Origin: Escherichia coli
GTDB taxonomy: Bacteria > Pseudomonadota > Gammaproteobacteria > Enterobacterales > Enterobacteriaceae
NCBI RefSeq assembly: GCF_024223415.1
Contig: NZ_CP100501.1
Direction: 5' to 3' (one strand)
DNA: 64,000 nucleotides
The notes below the pieces were generated by a model that was given only the letters and a program-made list of their open reading frames with translations, ran no database searches and was not told where the DNA came from. Both the position numbers and the translations under genes were made by a program. The number at the start of each line of letters is the position of its first letter. Within the stretch, counting starts at the first letter, position 1. This document shows positions 4,251 through 51,500 of this stretch, piece by piece.

Positions 4251-4517
4251 GTGAGACCATCAATTATCTTCGCAACCGCCGAGTATGTAAAGCGTCTGCG
4301 TGAAGAGTGCCTGCGGGAGAATAAACCCCTGCACCGCCATACCCGCTTCAGACGTCAGGAGCTGGCACAGGATGAGATTAACCCGGACGTCCTGGCGATG
4401 AGCGGTCATATCGCCAGACGCTGCAGTGAGCAGAAGCGGGTGCGTATCCCCGCCATGAAAGTCAGCGAATGGGGCCACCTGCTCCGCGCGCTTGAAATTG
4501 AACGGGTCTGTCACTGA
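4251..4517 (+). CDS. hypothetical protein (88 aa, GTG start)
   Basis: AAGGAG SD 8 nt before GTG; lies between the 144-aa gene and rpn. Confidence 0.45.
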   Translation: MRPSIIFATAEYVKRLREECLRENKPLHRHTRFRRQELAQDEINPDVLAMSGHIARRCSEQKRVRIPAMKVSEWGHLLRALEIERVCH

Positions 4518-36566: not shown

Positions 36567-38940
<2,374 letters not shown>

Positions 38941-39088
38941 CTTGCCCCCCGAAATTAATGTCCGTAAGAGGATCGTTAAGCGGACAGTAATAACCACTTT
39001 TATAATCCGCCTATTTATTAGGCTGACGTTGTCTCATATAACTGGTACGATATCAATCTCTTTTATCCCCCCTTAAACGTACATTAAT
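38941..39088. promoter_or_regulatory. res site region between divergent tnpA and tnpR
   Basis: AT-rich; TGTCCGTAAGAGGATCGTTAAGCGGACA inverted repeat typical of a resolvase subsite. Confidence 0.5.
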
Positions 39089-39664
39089 ATGACTGGAATC
39101 AAGATTGGCTATGCTCGTTGCTCCACAGACCAACAAGACCTAACTGCCCAGATAGATGCGCTGATAAATCTAGGCATTTCCACTGACAGGATCTATACAG
39201 ACAAAGGACTGACTGGTTCAAACCGACAGAGGCCGGGCCTAGAACAGGCGCTTGCAGCGGTTCGAGAGGGAGATACGCTAGTTGTTCCAAAACTAGATCG
39301 TTTAGCCCGTTCAGTACCTGATGCAAGAGGTATTGCTGATATCCTACAAGCTCGAGGAGCGAAACTCGCTCTAGGGGACAGTATCTATGATCCAACAGAC
39401 CCGATGGGGAAAATGTTCTTCAATATTCTTGCTACTTTTGCAGAGTTTGAAGGAGACCTTATTCGACTACGAACTAAAGAGGGGATGGCTGTTGCCCGTT
39501 CAAAGGGAAAATTGAAAGGAAAACAGCCTAAATTATCTGAAAAACAACAAAAAGAACTATGCCGTATGCGTGATACTGGCCAGTACTCTATCAGCGATCT
39601 AGCGGAACTATTTACCGTCTCGCGTGCAACGGTTTATCGAACACTTTCACGAGGACAAAAATGA
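39089..39664 (+). CDS. tnpR: TnpR serine resolvase
   Basis: IGYARCSTDQQDL catalytic serine motif; C-terminal HTH. Confidence 0.85.
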   Translation: MTGIKIGYARCSTDQQDLTAQIDALINLGISTDRIYTDKGLTGSNRQRPGLEQALAAVREGDTLVVPKLDRLARSVPDARGIADILQARGAKLALGDSIYDPTDPMGKMFFNILATFAEFEGDLIRLRTKEGMAVARSKGKLKGKQPKLSEKQQKELCRMRDTGQYSISDLAELFTVSRATVYRTLSRGQK

Positions 39665-39875
39665 CCGATTTAACTACACAGCAACATCTAGTAAAAATTG
39701 TCCATGATTATGCCTGCCCTCAAAAGGGTCATGGACAGTCCATCAAAGGTTCAAATGGATTACATCTGCATTCAATACCCAGATTACTTCCGCTTTGCTA
39801 AATGGATAGAACGGTTGGCGTAGGGTATTGTTGATGGTGTAATTAAAGTTCCTAAAGATCATTAAAATATCAGAT

Positions 39876-39914
39876 CGGAAATTTAGGCGGTTCCGGCGTA
39901 GAACCCAGAACCCC
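39876..39914 (-). repeat. internal third copy of the Tn3-family IR (1 mismatch, short duplication at tip)
   Basis: cggaaatttaggcggttccggcgtagaaccc agaacccc, same orientation as the IR at 41963-41994. Confidence 0.65.
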
Positions 39915-39923
39915 TTATCCGAA

Positions 39924-40787
39924 TTATTGTTCAGTTAACTTCATTTCGACAAGTAAAGGTAAATGATCTGAGACAGATGCATATGGCTTACTTTCAGGGG
40001 TCGCTCTATCTGACGGTTTAGGAATATATACATCTTTAATGTCCCATTTTTGAGCATTTGATGTAAGTATATAATCAATTTTCCTGTCTGGATTCCATGA
40101 TGGTGCCGTGTACTTCAATTCCTTATCAGTGTCATTGAACCATGCTGTTAAATCCAAGTACTCTGTTGATTGAGGTGGTAAATTAAGATCACCCACTATA
40201 ATTGGAAGTGCATTTTTAAACTGCCAAGAAGAGAATTTTGTTTGAAGAGTTCTTACTTGCTCTGCTCGTAATGGCTGCGTAGTGAAGTCCAAATGAGTAG
40301 TTACTAACATAACAGGCGCAGGATAATTAGGGACATCAACTTCTACAGCACAGGCCGCTCTTTGCTCCGCACCTTTGATGTTAGGTAGTTCCATCCTTTT
40401 ACTCAATTTCAAATCATACTTAGACAGTACTGCTGTACCATATTCCCCACCATCATGATCTATAGCCTTGCAGAAGTAATAATTCATTCCCAACTTATTA
40501 GCTATATACTCTGCTTGATTGACTGGGTTAGAACCCTCTTTACTAAAGTTCTTACCAGAACGCCTAGTCATGTTATCAACTTCTTGCAGTCCAATAATAT
40601 CAACATTCATTTTACGAATTGCTTCTACAATGGCATCAGTACTCCCCATTCTAGAGGCCATTATGTTATATGACCCAACACGAATACTATCGGTATCTGC
40701 TGGACCATCCATGAGGCGATCAGAAGCTAAAGTTGAAGAGGAAAGAACTATAAACCCTATAACCGCAGCAATGCTTGTTAATTTCAT
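39924..40787 (-). CDS. secreted endonuclease/exonuclease/phosphatase (EEP, DNase I-like fold) family protein
   Basis: 287 aa; signal peptide MKLTSIAAVIGFIVLSSSTLA; SYNIM...DIIGLQEV and SDHLP motifs of the EEP fold; AT-rich relative to surroundings. Confidence 0.7.
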   Translation of the reverse strand: MKLTSIAAVIGFIVLSSSTLASDRLMDGPADTDSIRVGSYNIMASRMGSTDAIVEAIRKMNVDIIGLQEVDNMTRRSGKNFSKEGSNPVNQAEYIANKLGMNYYFCKAIDHDGGEYGTAVLSKYDLKLSKRMELPNIKGAEQRAACAVEVDVPNYPAPVMLVTTHLDFTTQPLRAEQVRTLQTKFSSWQFKNALPIIVGDLNLPPQSTEYLDLTAWFNDTDKELKYTAPSWNPDRKIDYILTSNAQKWDIKDVYIPKPSDRATPESKPYASVSDHLPLLVEMKLTEQ

Positions 40788-40799
40788 TTGGATTTGCCC

Positions 40800-41414
40800 C
40801 TATATTTCCAGATACCTGTTATCACTTAACCCATTACTGGCTTGCTGCCGTAGATATTCCCGTGGCGAGCGATAACCCAGTGCACTATGCGGATGCCATT
40901 CGTTATAATGCTCGAACGCCTCTGCAAGGTTCTTTGCTGCCGTTAACCCGTCTGGTTTGGGCATGACACTGATGTAGTCACGCTTTATCGTTTTCACGAA
41001 GCTCTCTGCTATGCCGTTACTCTCCGGACTCCGCACCGCCGTGCTCTTCGGTTCAAGCCCCAACATCCGGGCAAACTGCCGTGTTTCATTAGCCCGGTAG
41101 CATGAACCATTATCCGTCATCCATATCACCACGTCAAAGGGTGACAGCAGGCTCATAAGACGCCCCAGCGTCGCCATAGTGCGTTCACCGAATACGTGCG
41201 CAACAACCGTCTTCCGGAGCCTGTCATACGCGTAAAACAGCCAGCGCTGGCGCGATTTAGCCCCGACATAGCCCCACTGTTCGTCCATTTCCGCGCAGAC
41301 GATGACGTCACTGCCCGGCTGTATGCGCGAGGTTACCGACTGCGGCCTGAGTTTTTTAAGTGACGTAAAATCGTGTTGAGGCCAACGCCCATAATGCGGG
41401 CTGTTGCCCGGCAT
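40800..41414 (-). pseudogene. chimeric in-frame ORF: IS1 InsB N-terminal about 100 aa fused to IS2 InsD C-terminal about 100 aa
   Basis: [16 protein letters not shown]...DVVIWMTD | [19 protein letters not shown]... Confidence 0.7.
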
Positions 41415-41608
41415 CCAACGCCATTCATGGCCATATCAATGATTTTCTGGTGCGTACCGGGTTGAGAAGCGGTGTAAGTGAACTGCAGTTGCCATGTTTT
41501 ACGGCAGTGAGAGCAGAGATAGCGCTGATGTCCGGCGGTGCTTTTGCCGTTACGCACCACCCCGTCAGTAGCTGAACAGGAGGGACAGCTGATAGAAACA
41601 GAAGCCAC
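41333..41608 (-). CDS. insA: IS1 InsA
   Basis: [43 protein letters not shown] (GTG start). Confidence 0.8.
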
Positions 41609-41955
41609 TGGAGCACCTCAAAAACACCATCATACACTAAATCAGTAAGTTGGCAGCATCACCCGCGAATTATTAAATAAATACCATGGGCTCTCTCGTA
41701 TTAGCCAAAAATTAAGGCAAAAAGGCTCGAGACCTTAGTAATAGAACAAGAGCTTGAAGATACCGATGTCAATTGGTTTGAGACGTGCCTTAAAGCAAAA
41801 GAAAAAAAGTTTGGCAGCAGCTTCCCCCAAAATCAGAGTTAGAAAACAAAGATGATTCGTGACCTTCTATATTAAGGTCACTCGTTATCAATGATATTAG
41901 AGTGCATAAGCAAATAGAAAGAACATACCAGTCAATTACTTATACTTTCTTTGAC

Positions 41956-42405
41956 TCAATGTCGGAAATTTCGGCGGTTCCGGCGTAGAACCCCATGAAG
42001 TTGTTTTCTCCGTTTCCTTAATGAAAATTCAGCCAGAGGCGCAGCAGGATGATTATGTAGTGCACTTAATGCCCTGTTGAACTGAAGTATTCCGGCAATA
42101 TCCATCCATGAGAGATATTTATCGACGCTCACTGTGACGGTGATGCAGTCATGGGTACGGGATTTTTCATGAATTTCTGCAGCCAGAAAGAGCAGCCAGC
42201 CGCCGTTAAATGCCGGGTGGCGGAGAATGAACCGGGCAATCTCTTTTTCAACTCCATCAGGCGGAATATCGTCCGTCAGTGTCCGGATAATAAAGTGCCG
42301 GAATGCATCAGCGGTGAACTGATATGCGGCAGAGAGGGTATCCATTTTTGTTCCTCTGTAAGTTGAGAGGGCCGGCAGAACGTCACCGGCACCGGTGTGT
42401 GTCAC
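41956..42405 (-). CDS. tra-operon protein whose last 12 codons and stop are supplied by the transposon IR (C-terminus altered by insertion)
   Basis: ATGA coupling with upstream gene; reading frame crosses the insertion junction at 41994/41995; in the reconstructed empty site the frame would continue about 37 codons. Confidence 0.5.
   Translation of the reverse strand: MTHTGAGDVLPALSTYRGTKMDTLSAAYQFTADAFRHFIIRTLTDDIPPDGVEKEIARFILRHPAFNGGWLLFLAAEIHEKSRTHDCITVTVSVDKYLSWMDIAGILQFNRALSALHNHPAAPLAEFSLRKRRKQLHGVLRRNRRNFRH
41963..41994 (-). repeat. Tn3-family terminal inverted repeat (distal)
   Basis: Exact reverse complement of 36535-36566. Confidence 0.75.
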
Positions 42406-43220
42406 ATGACGTACTTTTTGTCAGGAAACGAATCCGGCAGCAGGATAAGCGCCACACCGTCCATTTTCTCCCGCAACATTTGACGCTGTGCCGGCGGCCA
42501 GCGGCGCAGTGCATCAGCAAAATCCGCCGGACGCCAGGTGCGAAATTTCTCCTCAACGGCCAGGCGGTTCTGTACCAGGGCATTCAGTACGGCCCGTCCC
42601 TGTCTGACTCGCTTACGCTCATCGCTGAAAATTTCCTTCAGTGCCCGTGCATTGAGAGCAACTACCGAGGCCGGATGCAAATCAGGGAGCCAGACCATCA
42701 CCCCCTGTGCGGCAGCGTAGCCGTTCAGGCAGTGCCAGGCGTGGCAGAAGGCACAGAGATGAAAGGGCGGGCCTTCCGGCTGCAGCAGTTCACTTTCATT
42801 TTCGCTGAGTGCATCTGTTGTGACGATTTGTGACTTTTCCACATGACGCAGGGCCAGTCGCCTGGCCGACAGGCGGGCCTGTGCCAGGGACCGCTCCGCA
42901 TCCTGCAGGGTTCGGGTGTGTTTCTTTTTTTCGTCAGCGTTTTCCGGTACCGGATGTTTTTTCAGGCGCATCACCCGGGTGAGGTTTTTTTCCAGCAGGA
43001 CGACCGTATCCCGGCAGGTGTCAGCCATCTGCTGTAATGGCCATGAATCCTCCAGAATGAAGCGGTGAGTGACGGTCCTGCGACAGCAGGGACAGCGTCC
43101 GGGTGTTGAGAGCACGGGTGGTGGCAGCAGGGATTCACCGCTGAATACCGTGTCCGGTTGCGGGAGCGGGAAAAGCCAGCGTTCCCGGGCCGGGGCGATG
43201 AGTGGCGGTGTTTTGTTCAT
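42402..43220 (-). CDS. traT: TraT-like transfer protein (assignment by position and size)
   Basis: 272-aa ORF; synteny only; true start uncertain (overlaps a 94-aa ORF at 43135-43419 that may be traS). Confidence 0.45.
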   Translation of the reverse strand: MNKTPPLIAPARERWLFPLPQPDTVFSGESLLPPPVLSTPGRCPCCRRTVTHRFILEDSWPLQQMADTCRDTVVLLEKNLTRVMRLKKHPVPENADEKKKHTRTLQDAERSLAQARLSARRLALRHVEKSQIVTTDALSENESELLQPEGPPFHLCAFCHAWHCLNGYAAAQGVMVWLPDLHPASVVALNARALKEIFSDERKRVRQGRAVLNALVQNRLAVEEKFRTWRPADFADALRRWPPAQRQMLREKMDGVALILLPDSFPDKKYVM

Positions 43221-43442
43221 ACGTTTTTCTCTCTGTATACAGGGTGACGGCAGCCAGAATCAGTGCTGCGATGGCGGTGGAATAACACTCTGCAAACACA
43301 AACTCCTGATTATCCCGGTTGTCGCGGGCAATCACGTTGCCGTGCTCTGTTCTGAGCAGGGTGAAAGGGGGCAGCTCACAGGACATGGTCTGGTCCTCTT
43401 CATTGTGTGAAGACGGCACCGGGAAACCGGTGCCGTTGTGGA

Positions 43443-43841
43443 TTAACTGATGGAGACCGGAGAAAGACCGAGCGTTTTCTGTCCGCTGCTCATCATTTCC
43501 GGTACGACGGCAAGACAGGCACCGACCACAATGGACAGTATGCAGGCCAGCCCTGCTCCGGGTTTTTTACCGATTTGTTTGAGGCCAAGCAGGCCGGCAA
43601 TAAAGAGCACCAGGCCAATAACCTGAGCGATGGTCACAAATGAACTGCTGGAGCCTTTTGCACCATCGCCAACGGTTTTGATCATATCGAATAGGGTGTT
43701 TGCCATCGCTGTGTGGGGCAGCAGTATCACGGGAAGCAGAAGTAACAGGCGTATCAGCCGGTCACGGCAGGCCACCAGGCATAACTGAACATAAATAAAT
43801 GCAGCGCACAGACGCGCCGCCATGGCACGGAATCGTGACAT
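43443..43841 (-). CDS. traR: TraR-like small membrane protein
   Basis: Hydrophobic; synteny; start uncertain. Confidence 0.45.
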   Translation of the reverse strand: MSRFRAMAARLCAAFIYVQLCLVACRDRLIRLLLLLPVILLPHTAMANTLFDMIKTVGDGAKGSSSSFVTIAQVIGLVLFIAGLLGLKQIGKKPGAGLACILSIVVGACLAVVPEMMSSGQKTLGLSPVSIS

Positions 43842-43887
43842 ATAGTCTCCTTAACTAACAGACTGAATTACTGAAAATGAATGTGGA

Positions 43888-44418
43888 TCAGAAGGCGAGA
43901 CCAAGACTCGCCAGAGAGGCATCGATGACGCGATCGATAAAAACCAGCAGAACGCCGGCAACAAACTTGACGTTTCCTTTGCTGATGGACTCACTGCTGC
44001 TCAGGGCGGTATGCCCGTCCAGCAGGGATTTACGCCAGATGGAAATGCCGTTCATGGCAAATCCCACTCCGGCCAGTTTTACCAGTGAGAGCATGGCATT
44101 GGCGGCACCGGCAGCGGCACCAAAGGTGGTTGGTTGTACATAAGCGATAGGGCCGAAGGAATCTGCCCTGAATCCCATCTGGGTACCCCCGGCATTGATG
44201 AAGGATGGCAGGGCGACCAGCATGCCGCAGATGACGATACCGGCGATAAATTTTCCCGGTCCCATACTGTGACGCCCTTCTGCCCGGGCGCGCATCAGAT
44301 GACCAATCAGGCCGATAATCCCCAGCAGCTCTCCCCAGGTGAAGAGAAACTCCATGCCTGCACTGAATATACCGCTGGCAAAGTTCTCTATGGCTGTCAG
44401 GGCATCAATGCTCATCAT
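43888..44418 (-). CDS. traQ: TraQ-like membrane protein
   Basis: 176 aa, multiple TM; synteny. Confidence 0.55.
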   Translation of the reverse strand: MMSIDALTAIENFASGIFSAGMEFLFTWGELLGIIGLIGHLMRARAEGRHSMGPGKFIAGIVICGMLVALPSFINAGGTQMGFRADSFGPIAYVQPTTFGAAAGAANAMLSLVKLAGVGFAMNGISIWRKSLLDGHTALSSSESISKGNVKFVAGVLLVFIDRVIDASLASLGLAF

Positions 44419-48518: not shown

Positions 48519-51500
48519 TCATCGGCCGGGGCTGTGAGATTGTGCCTGTTGCAGAGTTTTTTCCTGCCTGTCCTCCGCCTTTTGGCTGTCAGACCACTCT
48601 TTCCAGGTCTGCTCAAAACCCAGAGAGCGGAAAAGCTTGTCCGGCTGCTCTTCCGGTTTGTGGATGGCGGCAAACAACGGGGAGTCCTGTTGCTTCAGGT
48701 GAAACTGCATCAACTGTGGGGCAGGACGCTTAGGGCCGTCCGCATCCCGGTTGATGGCCTCACCGTAACCGGAAAACTGAAGGCCCCTGTCGGTCATGGC
48801 GTTGATGACCAGCTGACGGCTGTCCGCTGTCGGGGTGGCCAGTGCCGGGTAAAGGGTGCCGTTCAGGCGGACCACGCCCTGCATGTATTCGTCGGCGCTT
48901 TGTAACAGCAGCAGATCCAGACGCTGGCTTTGTTTGTCGACGGAGAAGATGAGCGGCGTCAGTGTGGCGGGCGGTGTTCCGTTAAGTGGAACCCGCAGTG
49001 CCGGGTCTCGCGGTGCAGCGGCTGGCTGGCGGTCCTCCCCCAGATACAGGGTGTCGGGTACTTTGTCGGGGAGACGTACATCCTGCATGAGCTGTGGCCA
49101 TCCCTGCTGTAACAGGGTCATCATCTGGCGGAATGTGGCCGCCGGATATTCCCGGATGTACTGGCCTTCATGCGGGTTATCATGCGATACGCTGATCCCG
49201 TTACAGACCGGTTTCATGGTCCAGATATTTCGCACCCATTCCGGTTTGCCCTGTGATGAAGGTGATCTCTCCCGGGCCTGCAATGTCAGCGTGACGGGGT
49301 CGCCTTTCTGGTGGTTTTTGACCAGTTCTTCCAGGCCTTTTCCCCAGTATTCCCGTTTGCCACTGCGGTTGGTGAGCTCCACAAAAAAGCAGCGCCCTTT
49401 TCCGGGCGCATACTCTTTTTCTCCGTAGTTTGTCAGGACGGCAGTCACACTTTCACCGGGTCTGAGTTTGCCGGGGGGCTCTTCCTCCGGTGTGTCGGGT
49501 TGCTGTGGCTGTGCACTGACAGCGACGTTTCCTGCTGACGATGACGGGGCGGCTGGTTGTTCCGGTGTGTCGGCCCGGGGGGCTTCAGCTTTTGCCGTGA
49601 CCGGCGCTTCCGGATGCGGTGTTTCAGCCGTACTGCCTGCAGTTTGCTCTGTTTCTGCTTTCGGTGACACAGGGGGGGCCGGTTGTGCCATTGTTGTCTC
49701 TTCCGGTGACAGGCGGTTGAGTTCCGGCGTGGGTCTGTGGGTGACGATGGCATCATGCGCCATCCCTTTCTCCTGGCGGAGTTTTTCCAGCGCAGCCCTC
49801 TGGGTCGGGAGTTTCATGCGAACCTTGATGTCGTATTCGACAATCAGTTGCATGGCTTTTTGTTTAAAGGCATCACTGCCGGTCAGCTCGATAACGCCGC
49901 CATAGAAATTGGTGGCCACAGCAAGGGCAGCCAGAACCTTTTTGTCATCCGCGCTGGCGCCATCCACCATTTCCAGACGGTTGAGTTTATCCAGGAATGC
50001 CGGTTCGCCGTCGACGCGGTAGAGCGCAGTATTGTCGGGTAACTCTTCGTGCTCAAGATTTTTAATAATCTCGTCCAGGTTGTGCCGCTGCGGACTGTCG
50101 GGACGGCGGGGCGCAAAGATAATCGTGTCCGGTTCCGTTGACGATGTGTCTTCCGGGCTGTTTTCCGGTGGTGATGGTGGTGCGACCTCCTCTGTTGCTG
50201 TTTCAGCCTCCGTGGGCTTTTTCTCCTGAATAACGGAAGGTTCTGAGGTGCGTGATTTCCCACCGGTCAGAAAACGGCGCAGACGGCTGAAAAGCGATGG
50301 CGTTTCAGGGTGGGCTGCTTCATTCGCTGTGCTGGTCTCAGTGGCAGACACAGGACGCTCTTCCTGCAGTTTATCTTCAGCCGTCGGTTCAGCGGTGGCC
50401 TGCCGGACTGGCTGAGTTTCTGCAGGTTCAGAAGGTGAGGCTGTTTCTGCTGTGCCGGTGTTGTGAACAGTGGCAGCAACCGTGGCATCGGCATTGAGCT
50501 CCTCAGGCGGTGCGTCACGGTTGTTATCGGGGACGGCAGAGGCACTCTTTTCACTGGTATCCGTTGCAGACAGAACATCCTCTTCCTGCGGTTTATTTTC
50601 TGCCGTTGCTTCAGGGGTTGCCTGCTGAACAGGCTGAGTCCCGGCAGGTTCAGAAGGTGAGGCTGTTTCTGTTGTATCGGTGTGGTGAGCCGTGGTCATC
50701 ACAGTGGCATCAGCGTTGAGGTCTTCCGCAAATGCGCTCCAGTCGTCAGCGCTGGCCATGGAGACCTGCAGTTGTTCTTCAGTCTGCGTTGTGGTGGTGT
50801 GCTGTGTCCCGGTCGCGTCGGAGACGGAGGTTTCCGGTGTGTCGTCACCTGGGGAGAGCTCTTCTGCCTGTACGCTCTGGTTGTCAGCGGTGGTGGCAGA
50901 GGCATTTTTTTCACCGGTATCAGCGGCAGGTATAACGCTCTCCTGAGGTTTGTCTTCTGCTGTTGGTTCAGGGGAGGACTTCTGAACAGGCTGAATCTCT
51001 GCAGGTTCAGGAAGCGTTCCTGTTTCTGCTGTGTTGGTGTTGTGAGCGGTGTCTGTACCTGTGGCGTCTGTATTGAGGTCTTCCTGGTCGCCAGCGGTAG
51101 CCGCAGAGGTATTCTCTGTGCCGGTATCAGCGGCAGACGCAATATTCTCCAGTGGTTTATCCGGGGATAACGTCTCCGTAGTTACTGACTGCAGGGATGC
51201 ATAGGCGGCATAGTCATCTTCATATGCCTGGTTTTCTGTCTCTTCAGTGTGGATGTCATAAGGCGTATCCGGTGTCGCCAGCACCGTTTCCGGGGCTGTG
51301 CTCTGTTTGTTTTCAGGGGACATTTGTGGCTTCTCATCTTTTACCGGTGTGAATATCAGGTTGCCGATCACGACAGCTTCACGGTGGTCGGCAGTGTCAC
51401 TGTTGGGTGTGGGGATACCGATATGTTTTAACTGTGCGTTCATGACATGCTGAAAGTCGTCCCGTCCCCGGCTGGCGTCCAGGTCATTGAAATCGGTCAG

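What the first reader, a model, noticed from the sequence alone, without database searches (positions are those of the whole stretch)
40789..41663. IS2::IS1 hybrid joined at an 8-bp microhomology, creating an in-frame chimeric ORF
IS1 insB and IS2 insD both contain tgacggat; the join occurs exactly there (…DVVIWMTD | NGSCYRANE…), fusing about 100 aa of InsB to about 100 aa of InsD. This points to microhomology-mediated deletion between adjacent IS1 and IS2 copies. The IS2 part differs from the intact IS2 at 14264-15594 by a few substitutions.
Basis: seen in the sequence. Interest (0 to 1): 0.5.

Follow-up and report, generated by a model that had tools for sequence, protein, structure and literature searches.

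The report
Truncated IS2–IS1 fusion remnant
Two neighbouring insertion sequences on an E. coli conjugative plasmid were fused into one dead 875-bp remnant by a deletion of about 1.4 kb at an 8-base shared sequence; this is an ordinary kind of event, although the joint happens to form a strong-looking promoter aimed at the next gene.

Summary
Window 40789-41119 is the right end of IS2. Window 41112-41663 is the left 552 bp of IS1. The two overlap in one shared octamer, ATCCGTCA (41112-41119), which occurs once in each element.

The flanks show a local deletion. Relatives carry an empty site (Vibrio tapetis plasmid) and an intact IS1 with both 9-bp target duplications, 167 bp upstream of the same EEP-family gene (Providencia plasmid). 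The window keeps IS1's left end and one duplication copy. IS2's intact right end sits 1 nt from the EEP gene's start codon.

The same joint is present in at least five other assemblies, always in the same plasmid context. So it is real, arose once and was inherited. No intermediate with an intact IS2 was found.

The fused ORF is in frame because the octamer encodes (M/L)-T-D, the second catalytic Asp, in both transposases. Nothing indicates that the fusion protein is active.

The joint creates TTGACG-17 nt-GATAAT, the lambda PR architecture. It faces the EEP gene, which lost its own upstream region. This is unlikely by chance (about 5 in 10,000 random joints) but is untested.

Verdict: an ordinary insertion-sequence remnant made by short-homology deletion, with a possibly adaptive promoter by-product.

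The parts
40789..41119 (-). IS2 right-end fragment: the complete right terminal inverted repeat (from 40789, TGGATTTGCCCC...) plus the last 103 codons of insD (orfB). It is 331 of about 1331 bp.
   Evidence: collinear with positions 1-331 of the intact IS2 at 14264-15594, 97% identity.
41112..41119 (.). Shared octamer ATCCGTCA (TGACGGAT on the gene strand), which is the crossover interval. It encodes (M/L)-T-D in both transposase genes, in the same codon phase.
41112..41663 (-). IS1 left part (positions 217-768 as read on the plus strand): left inverted repeat (41641-41663), intact insA, the frameshift site and the first 101 codons of insB. The right-hand 216 bp, including the right inverted repeat, are missing.
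   Evidence: 1 mismatch in 552 nt against the IS1A copy in pGF4-A.
41333..41608 (-). Intact insA (91 aa; zinc ribbon plus helix-turn-helix).
   Evidence: PF03811, PF12759.
41351..41357 (-). IS1 A6C programmed -1 frameshift motif (AAAAAAC on the gene strand), retained. An InsA-InsB'-InsD' fusion of 269 aa is therefore conceivable.
   Evidence: Read from the sequence; the frame relation of the ORFs is.
40800..41414 (-). In-frame chimeric ORF of 204 aa, made of the InsB N-terminal part and the InsD C-terminal part. PGAP annotates the same stretch in pGF60-A as two pseudogenes.
41109..41137 (-). Sigma-70-type promoter-like site created by the joint. The -35 TTGACG (41137-41132) comes from IS1, the spacer is 17 nt, and the -10 GATAAT (41114-41109) is made of GAT from the octamer and AAT from IS2. 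It points towards the EEP gene.
   Evidence: The hexamer architecture matches lambda PR. Activity was not tested.
41664..41672 (.). Surviving copy of the 9-bp IS1 target-site duplication, CGCGAATTA.
39924..40787 (-). Gene for a secreted endonuclease/exonuclease/phosphatase (EEP) family protein (287 aa), the passenger gene of a Tn3-family transposon. Its ATG lies 1 nt from the IS2 end. Its native Shine-Dalgarno sequence (AAGGTG) and 167-bp upstream spacer are absent here.

Best explanation
The 875-bp segment is a non-mobile remnant of two insertion sequences that once lay side by side upstream of the EEP gene of a Tn3-family transposon on an IncI-type conjugative plasmid.

1. Shown by relatives: IS1 inserted 167 bp upstream of the EEP start codon and duplicated CGCGAATTA.
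2. Inferred from the intact IS2 end: a complete IS2 inserted between IS1 and the gene, 1 nt from the ATG, in the same orientation as IS1.
3. Inferred from the joint: an illegitimate, transposase-independent deletion of about 1.4 kb occurred between the two copies of TGACGGAT, by replication slippage or microhomology-mediated end joining. It removed about 1000 bp of IS2, the roughly 170-bp spacer with the native EEP promoter region, and 216 bp of IS1.

The event happened once, and the descendants of that plasmid inherited it.

Two by-products follow from where the octamer lies:
- It is the codon block W-(M/L)-T-D around the second catalytic Asp in both DDE transposases. The fusion is therefore in frame and on paper keeps a D-D-E triad. 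The product is most likely inert, and the element has only one end of each parent.
- The joint places an IS1 TTGACG 17 nt upstream of GATAAT. This forms a lambda-PR-like promoter that reads through the IS2 stub into the EEP gene, which probably now provides some or most of that gene's transcription. This last point is inference only.
For: Joint anatomy:
- Both parental identities are collinear up to an 8-bp overlap, and there is no inverted repeat at the joint.
- The joint lies on one of only 13 direct matches of 8 bp or more, P about 1e-4.

Ancestral states:
- Empty site with a single CGCGAATTA in a Vibrio tapetis plasmid.
- Intact 768-bp IS1 flanked by CGCGAATTA on both sides in Providencia rettgeri p12100-PER.
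- EEP gene, spacer and intact IS1 in pPSS-08-2_2 and pGF4-A.
- The window keeps the left-end copy of the duplication.

Reality and single origin:
- The same joint is in complete plasmid pGF60-A and in draft contigs of GCA_958431365.1, GCA_025261605.1, GCA_900482235.1 and GCA_027921485.1.
- In the contigs that extend past the IS1 end it always lies between the tra genes and the EEP gene; the GCA_027921485.1 contig ends inside the remnant and shows only the EEP side.
- It is absent from 5,425 other complete E. coli genomes, PLSDB, JGI metagenome contigs and GTDB species representatives.

Promoter:
- It matches 10 of 12 consensus positions with a 17-nt spacer. It is absent from either parent.
- 0.045% of random IS1/IS2 joints create such a site.
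- It is the only one of 276 candidate microhomology joints that does so.
- It is one of only 6 such sites in 128 kb of window strands.
- The hexamers and spacing match lambda PR.

Catalytic Asp:
- The IS1 family shows a D-56-D-24-E conservation pattern.
- IS2 has WLTDNG...IAESF.
- The chimera aligns without gaps across the joint with retroviral integrase cores. Its TDNG falls on HTDNG and its AES on VES.
Against: - No intermediate with an intact IS2 at this site was found in any collection. Step 2 therefore rests on the intact IS2 terminus alone.
- The IS2 stub is 3% diverged from the plasmid's resident IS2, so the donor copy is unknown.
- Slippage, end joining after a break, and an IEE-type polymerase cannot be told apart from sequence.
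- The promoter is only a consensus match, and one carrier (GCA_027921485.1) has GATGAT in the -10.
- The integrase alignment is marginal (E about 1e-3) and is carried mostly by the IS2 half. Native IS1 alone finds no integrase and no rve domain.
- The AlphaFold2 model of the chimera is poor (pLDDT 53.6).
Confidence: 0.85

Rival explanations
1. Assembly chimera: the assembler joined reads from separate IS1 and IS2 copies.
For: IS1 and IS2 are multi-copy repeats that often break or confuse assemblies. Some other IS1::IS2 fusion ORFs in Shigella sonnei drafts look suspicious, with duplicated IS1 segments.
Against: An 8-bp overlap is far below any assembler's overlap length. The identical joint and flanks occur in a complete plasmid and four independent drafts besides the window. 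The carriers differ from one another by SNPs and by insertion-sequence content.
Confidence: 0.02
2. A transposase-made structure: one element inserted into the other (nesting), or an insertion-sequence-mediated adjacent deletion.
For: IS1 and IS2 do insert into each other and do cause adjacent deletions. Many plasmids have IS1 and IS2 side by side.
Against: Transposase joints lie at element termini. Here the joint is 331 bp inside IS2 and 216 bp inside IS1, with no inverted repeat and no target duplication. IS2's true terminus is joined to the EEP gene, not to IS1.
Confidence: 0.02
3. Same deletion, but fixed by selection: it was retained because the joint promoter restored expression of the EEP gene after IS2 had cut the gene off from its ribosome-binding site and promoter.
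For: The joint is the only one of 276 candidate microhomology joints that gives a site matching 10 of 12 or better towards the gene. The random-joint rate is 4.5e-4. The architecture is lambda-PR-like. The native upstream region is gone. The insD stop codon lies 12 nt before the EEP ATG, which allows coupled translation, and the IS2 tip offers AGGGG 9 nt upstream of the ATG.
Against: The function and selective value of the EEP protein are unknown. One carrier has a weakened -10. The lineage is rare, so hitch-hiking or drift would suffice to explain it.
Confidence: 0.3
4. The chimeric ORF encodes a functional hybrid DDE enzyme: N-terminal DNA binding and the first half of the RNase H fold from IS1, the second half from IS2.
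For: D, D and E are all present, and the splice is at the equivalent Asp. The insA gene and the frameshift site are intact. The Pfam rve model aligns across the joint.
Against: The two halves come from families with no detectable sequence similarity. The AlphaFold2 model has low confidence. The element has one IS1 end and one IS2 end, so there is no pair of cognate ends to act on. Carriers already differ by substitutions next to the Asp (N to D in P0002). PGAP calls the two parts pseudogenes.
Confidence: 0.02

Closest known systems
RecA-independent deletions between short direct repeats in E. coli (slipped misalignment or short-homology illegitimate recombination; Albertini et al. 1982 Cell 29:319, cited from memory), and microhomology end joining, including the IEE PrimPol system (bioRxiv 10.1101/2023.06.07.543989, read).
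   Same: The endpoints lie in a 5-9 bp direct repeat roughly 1 kb apart, one repeat copy is retained, and no site-specific enzyme signature is present.
   Different: Here both repeats lie inside two different insertion sequences. IEE-type events are described as excisions starting at element ends, which is not the case here. Which pathway acted cannot be read from the sequence.
Truncated or nested insertion-sequence remnants on enterobacterial plasmids, routinely annotated as partial transposase pseudogenes.
   Same: Loss of one end of each element, no mobility, and annotation as two pseudogenes in pGF60-A.
   Different: Most such remnants are cut by another element's insertion or by homologous recombination between copies. 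This one is an internal-to-internal, in-frame fusion.
Promoters created by insertion sequences, such as the hybrid promoters formed by the outward -35 of IS2 or IS1 with a resident -10 (Jaurin & Normark 1983; Prentki et al. 1986, cited from memory; general statement in PMC7986276, listed but not read).
   Same: A new sigma-70 promoter is assembled from element-derived and other sequence and faces a neighbouring gene.
   Different: Both hexamers lie inside transposase coding sequence and were brought together by a deletion, not by an insertion. The site is about 320 nt from the gene and its activity is untested.
Lambda PR promoter.
   Same: TTGACT-17 nt-GATAAT-GGTT in lambda against TTGACG-17 nt-GATAAT-GGTT here.
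   Different: There is no relationship by descent, the spacer differs, and there are no operator sites.
DD(35)E integrase/transposase catalytic core (IS3 family, retroviral integrases) and the IS1 D-D-E core (Ohta et al. 2002 J Bacteriol 184:6146, cited from memory; that paper was not held).
   Same: The chimera carries Asp (IS1), Asp (joint) and Glu (IS2) with IS3-type D-35-E spacing.
   Different: It is a splice of two families. Folding and activity are unsupported.

Membership tests
Intact IS1 element | Two terminal inverted repeats of about 23 bp | tested here: not met
   Only the left repeat is present, at 41641-41663. The right-hand 216 bp are deleted.
Intact IS1 element | Complete InsAB' transposase with all of D, D and E | tested here: not met
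   insB stops being IS1 at the second Asp. The IS1 Glu (IERHN) is missing. Pfam DDE_Tnp_IS1 covers model positions 1-73 of 131 only.
Intact IS1 element | 9-bp target-site duplication on both sides | tested here: not met
   One copy remains (41664-41672). Both copies are present in the Providencia relative.
Intact IS2 (IS3 family) element | Both inverted repeats, orfA, and orfB with a frameshift | tested here: not met
   Only the right repeat and the last 103 codons of orfB remain, 331 of 1331 bp.
Short-homology (microhomology) deletion product | Each side is collinear with its parent up to a short shared identity, and one copy of that identity is retained | tested here: met
   8-bp overlap at 41112-41119. 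The probability of a joint lying on a match of 8 bp or more is about 1e-4.
Short-homology (microhomology) deletion product | The two parents lay on the same molecule in direct orientation | tested here: met
   The flanks on both sides belong to one locus in relatives, namely the EEP gene, the spacer and the IS1 target duplication. Orientation follows from the product.
Short-homology (microhomology) deletion product | Existence of the undeleted precursor | tested here: not met
   No record has an intact IS2 at the EEP start codon. Absence from databases does not exclude the precursor.
Sigma-70 promoter | -35 and -10 hexamers close to consensus with a 16-18 nt spacer | tested here: met
   TTGACG-17-GATAAT, 10 of 12 positions.
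Sigma-70 promoter | Transcription initiation in vivo | not testable with these tools
   No transcript data are available.
Functional DDE transposase | D, D and E present in one polypeptide | tested here: met
   D109, D166 and E202 of the conceptual 269-aa InsA-B'-D' fusion.
Functional DDE transposase | A coherent RNase H-like fold | tested here: inconclusive
   AlphaFold2 gives mean pLDDT 53.6. The IS1 half scores 62-80 with a strand-strand-strand-helix-strand order, and the IS2 half scores below 50.
Functional DDE transposase | A pair of cognate ends to act on | tested here: not met
   The remnant has one IS1 end and one IS2 end.

The most novel reading that the evidence does not exclude
The deletion was not neutral. 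Of the hundreds of short homologies available, the one that became fixed welds an IS1 -35 to an IS2 -10 into a lambda-PR-like promoter. That promoter now drives the transposon's secreted EEP-family passenger gene, which IS2 had cut off from its own signals. This would be a promoter built from two transposase coding sequences by a deletion.

A far less likely add-on is that the in-frame fusion, spliced at the shared catalytic Asp, folds into a working hybrid DDE core.
Probability: 0.25. Interest if true: 0.45.

Novelty: new member of a known kind. Interest (0 to 1): 0.25.

Why it matters
In itself it matters little. It is one more decayed insertion-sequence pair, and annotation pipelines already treat it as two pseudogenes.

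It has three modest uses:
- The joint is a unique, easily typed marker of one lineage of IncI-type poultry and human E. coli plasmids. It occurs in one of 5,426 complete genomes and in a few drafts.
- It is a clean natural example, with the empty and IS1-occupied ancestral states in hand, of short-homology deletion between two different elements.
- If the joint promoter is active, it shows how element decay can rewire expression of a neighbouring passenger gene. It would also be a reminder that conserved catalytic motifs (W-x-T-D) can serve as recombination microhomologies between unrelated transposase genes, which gives in-frame domain swaps.

Tried and rejected
- **Search for the precursor.** I looked for an intact IS2 at the EEP start codon in complete E. 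coli genomes, PLSDB, JGI metagenome contigs and GTDB representatives. Nothing was found.
- **Exact joint 27-mer.** Searched in metagenome and genome collections. Nothing was found.
- **Sequence proof that IS1 Asp80 equals the IS3-family second Asp.** hhalign of an IS1-family profile against InsD found nothing (probability 0.1%). The IS1 profile against PDB found no integrase. Native InsB against Pfam gave no rve hit. The equivalence therefore rests on the conservation pattern, the gap-free chimera-integrase alignment, the secondary-structure order in a mediocre model and remembered literature. The key IS1 paper, PMC151954, is not held.
- **AlphaFold2 of the chimera.** The alignment was hand-made from two halves, and the model was too poor (pLDDT 53.6) to justify a fold search.
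- **Recombination hot spot at the octamer.** Rejected. Other public IS1::IS2 fusion ORFs use other joints (AKSRQ|FARML, YESR|QFARML, NLNLR|HDLPSS). All ORFs with this joint share one genomic context.
- **The shared octamer as significant in itself.** Rejected. The number of shared 8-mers is at chance level.
- **Literature search for the GF60 plasmids.** Nothing was found.

Full report
**What is there**

Reading the region and aligning it to the intact IS2 of the same window (14264-15594) and to IS1 copies from related plasmids gives an exact anatomy.
- Window 40789-41119 is the right end of IS2. It comprises the terminal repeat TGGATTTGCCCC... and the last 103 codons of insD. Identity to the resident IS2 is 97.0% (10 mismatches in 335 nt).
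- Window 41112-41663 is IS1 from an internal point to its left terminal repeat, with 1 mismatch in 552 nt against an IS1A copy.
- The two identities overlap in ATCCGTCA (41112-41119). Including the next four bases, the parents agree at 11 of 12 positions. The mismatched base (41120) is of the IS1 type, so the crossover lies within the octamer.
- The octamer occurs once in each element.
- The minus-strand ORF 40800-41414 (204 aa) reads through the joint in frame as ...DVVIWMTD|NGSCYRANE....
- insA (41333-41608) and the A6C frameshift motif (41351-41357) are intact.

**Is it more than chance?**

That IS1 and IS2 share an octamer is not notable. In this relative orientation they share 15 eight-mers, against 16 +/- 5 in shuffles, and they have 13 maximal direct matches of 8-9 bp. 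What is notable is that the joint lies on one of these matches. Only about 121 of roughly a million possible endpoint pairs would do so (about 1e-4, derived). The joint was therefore guided by homology.

**How it arose**

The flanks settle the history.
- In several E. coli plasmids (pPSS-08-2_2, pGF4-A and others) the same Tn3-family module (tnpA, tnpR, EEP-family gene) is followed by a 167-bp AT-rich spacer and an intact IS1 in the same orientation.
- In pGF4-A the sequence CGCGAATTA sits beside the right end of IS1. In the window the same nonamer sits beside the surviving left end at 41664-41672.
- In Providencia rettgeri p12100-PER a 768-bp IS1 is flanked by CGCGAATTA on both sides. The right flank then continues exactly as in the window, up to the transposon's terminal repeat at about 41995.
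- A Vibrio tapetis plasmid has the unoccupied site with a single CGCGAATTA.

So IS1 inserted once, 167 bp upstream of the EEP gene's ATG, and the window retains the original left junction of that insertion.

On the other side, the complete IS2 terminus abuts the EEP gene 1 nt from its start codon. Only a transposition of IS2 can create such a joint. The simplest precursor is therefore EEP, then an intact IS2, then about 170 bp of spacer, then IS1. The remnant results from a deletion of about 1.4 kb between the two TGACGGAT copies: 1008 nt of IS2 from the octamer onward, about 171 nt of spacer, and 216 nt of IS1.

Both endpoints are internal to their elements, with no inverted repeat and no target duplication. 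This excludes a transposase-made joint. The pathway cannot be inferred from the sequence. It could be replication slippage, end joining at microhomology, or an IEE-type PrimPol as reviewed in bioRxiv 10.1101/2023.06.07.543989.

**Is it real, and how common is it?**

- The same joint with the same flanks is present in the complete plasmid pGF60-A (chicken meat, Switzerland). That record is 99.9% identical to the window over 38000-44000. It differs from the window elsewhere in insertion-sequence content, so it is a separate record.
- A look-up of the fusion ORF in about 15 billion proteins found it on draft contigs of four more NCBI assemblies (GCA_958431365.1, GCA_025261605.1, GCA_900482235.1, GCA_027921485.1). 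Wherever the contig extends that far, the context is tra genes, TraT, a hypothetical gene, insA, the fusion ORF, EEP and tnpR; the GCA_027921485.1 contig ends inside the remnant and shows only the fusion ORF, EEP and tnpR.
- The joint is absent from the other 5,425 complete E. coli genomes, from PLSDB, and as an exact 27-mer from JGI metagenome contigs and GTDB representatives.
- No record with an intact IS2 at this site was found.

The remnant is thus a real product of a single event, carried by a small plasmid lineage.

Among six carriers, all seven SNPs in 39901-42000 fall inside the remnant, and none falls in the EEP gene. This points to gene conversion by other IS1 and IS2 copies in the hosts, or to polishing cross-talk in the assemblies.

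**Why the fusion is in frame**

In IS1 the octamer lies in TGG ATG ACG GAT (W-M-T-D). In IS2 it lies in TGG CTG ACG GAT (W-L-T-D). The codon phase is the same in both genes, so the fusion is necessarily in frame.

The Asp appears to be the second catalytic residue in both enzymes.
- In IS2 it is the TDNG motif, followed 35 residues later by the Glu of IAESF, with Lys at +7. This is the IS3-family and retroviral DD(35)E signature (established knowledge; Pfam rve and rve_3 hits).
- In fifteen diverse IS1-family representatives the conserved acidic residues are D23, D80 (14 of 16 rows, counting the query) and E105 of the catalytic segment, that is D-56-D-24-E. This agrees with my recollection of Ohta et al. 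2002, a paper I could not read.
- phmmer of the chimera against PDB sequences aligns it without gaps across the joint to lentiviral integrase cores. [21 protein letters not shown]|NGSCY falls on [26 protein letters not shown], and IAES on VVES (E about 1e-3).
- The Pfam rve model likewise spans residues 114-195 of the conceptual fusion.

These matches are weak and are carried mainly by the IS2 half. Native InsB gives no rve hit, the IS1 profile finds no integrase, and hhalign finds nothing. An AlphaFold2 model of the chimera has mean pLDDT 53.6. The IS1 half shows the expected strand-strand-strand-helix-strand order, with Asp80 just after the fourth strand, and the IS2 half is unresolved.

I conclude that the microhomology is a shared catalytic-motif codon block. 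That is a neat explanation for the frame, but it is no evidence for an active protein. The remnant also has one IS1 end and one IS2 end, so it cannot move as a unit.

The promoter scan finds, on the minus strand, TTGACG (41137-41132), 17 nt of spacer, then GATAAT (41114-41109). The -35 is IS1 sequence. The -10 is GAT from the octamer plus AAT, the IS2 Asn codon.
- Native IS1 has GATGGC at the -10 position, and native IS2 has CGTCTC at the -35 position, so neither parent has the site.
- It matches 10 of 12 consensus positions. That is better than IS1's own promoter-like site in the left repeat (9 of 12).
- It is one of only six such sites on both strands of the whole 64-kb window.
- Of 200,000 random IS1/IS2 joints, 0.045% create a straddling site of this quality in this direction.
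- Of the 276 microhomology joints of 6 bp or more available in the reconstructed precursor, only the observed one does.
- Lambda PR is TTGACT-17-GATAAT-GGTT, and the joint site is TTGACG-17-GATAAT-GGTT.

The site faces the EEP gene about 320 nt downstream. That gene has lost its native Shine-Dalgarno sequence (AAGGTG) and its 167-bp upstream region, which holds a 9-of-12 promoter-like site. The insD stop codon lies 12 nt before the EEP ATG, and the IS2 tip offers AGGGG 9 nt upstream of the ATG.

It is therefore plausible that the joint promoter now transcribes the EEP gene, and possible that this is why this particular deletion survived. This is inference from consensus matches noticed after the fact. 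One carrier has GATGAT in the -10, and the EEP protein's role is unknown; it has only weak similarity to exonuclease III and extracellular nucleases.

**Comparison with what is known**

Short-homology deletions, decayed insertion sequences and promoters created by insertion sequences are all textbook phenomena, and PGAP already annotates this stretch as two pseudogenes. The remnant fails every membership test for an intact IS1 or IS2. It meets the tests for a microhomology deletion product, except that the precursor has not been observed.

Other in-frame IS1::IS2 fusion ORFs with different joints exist in public assemblies. Some of them look like misassemblies. There is therefore no hot spot at this octamer.

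**Verdict**

This is an ordinary insertion-sequence remnant and a new instance of a known kind, so interest is low. The only open point worth an experiment is whether the joint promoter is active.

Noticed in passing
window 37130-41995 (right terminal repeat GGGGTTCTACGCCGGAACC... ending near 41995): The remnant lies inside a Tn3-family transposon (tnpA truncated by an IS3-family element near 37130, tnpR at 39089-39664, secreted EEP-family passenger gene). The transposon sits in the tra region of an IncI-type plasmid. The same module occurs in Providencia, Proteus, Vibrio tapetis and E. coli plasmids.
   Followed up: partly
window 41044-41537, compared with L001, L007, L008, L009 and L010: Among six carriers, all seven SNPs in 39901-42000 lie inside the IS-derived 875 bp. 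None lies in the EEP gene or the flanks. This suggests gene conversion from other IS1 or IS2 copies in the hosts, or polishing cross-talk between repeat copies.
   Followed up: partly
L005 4300-5067 (Providencia rettgeri p12100-PER): The IS1 copy at the ancestral site has both outermost bases changed (TGTAATGA... at one end...CATCACT at the other) while the 9-bp duplication is intact. The cause is unknown.
   Followed up: no
L006 about 4300-4380 (Vibrio tapetis plasmid, empty site): Immediately next to the unoccupied IS1 target there is a 76-bp extra segment containing GGGGTTCTGCGCCGGAAC. This resembles the transposon's terminal repeat and may be a solo repeat or a miniature element.
   Followed up: no
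L011, L012, L013; proteins P0005, P0007, P0010, P0011, P0018: Other in-frame IS1::IS2 fusion ORFs with different joints exist; P0011 stands for 196 member sequences. Two Shigella sonnei drafts show the same locus with IS1 1-577 or 1-650, then IS2 1031-1331 or 971-1331, then IS1 508-768. The duplicated IS1 segment looks like a misassembly of an IS2 inserted in IS1.
   Followed up: partly
window 11802-18708: Long inverted repeats (arms of 217, 418 and 882 nt, 93-100% complementary) flank the intact IS2 at 14264-15594. They correspond to IS3-family copies in opposite orientation. pGF60-A differs from the window here by extra ISCro1 and IS21 insertions.
   Followed up: no
window 50305-51083: Diverged direct repeats with a 222-bp period (73-80% identity) fall inside the gene that pGF60-A annotates as a 1343-aa LPD7 domain-containing protein in the tra region.
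   Followed up: no
window 40788-40802: IS2 inserted 1 nt from the EEP start codon and replaced the native AAGGTG ribosome-binding site. The insD stop codon (TAG, 40800-40802) now lies 12 nt upstream of the EEP ATG, which could couple their translation.
   Followed up: no
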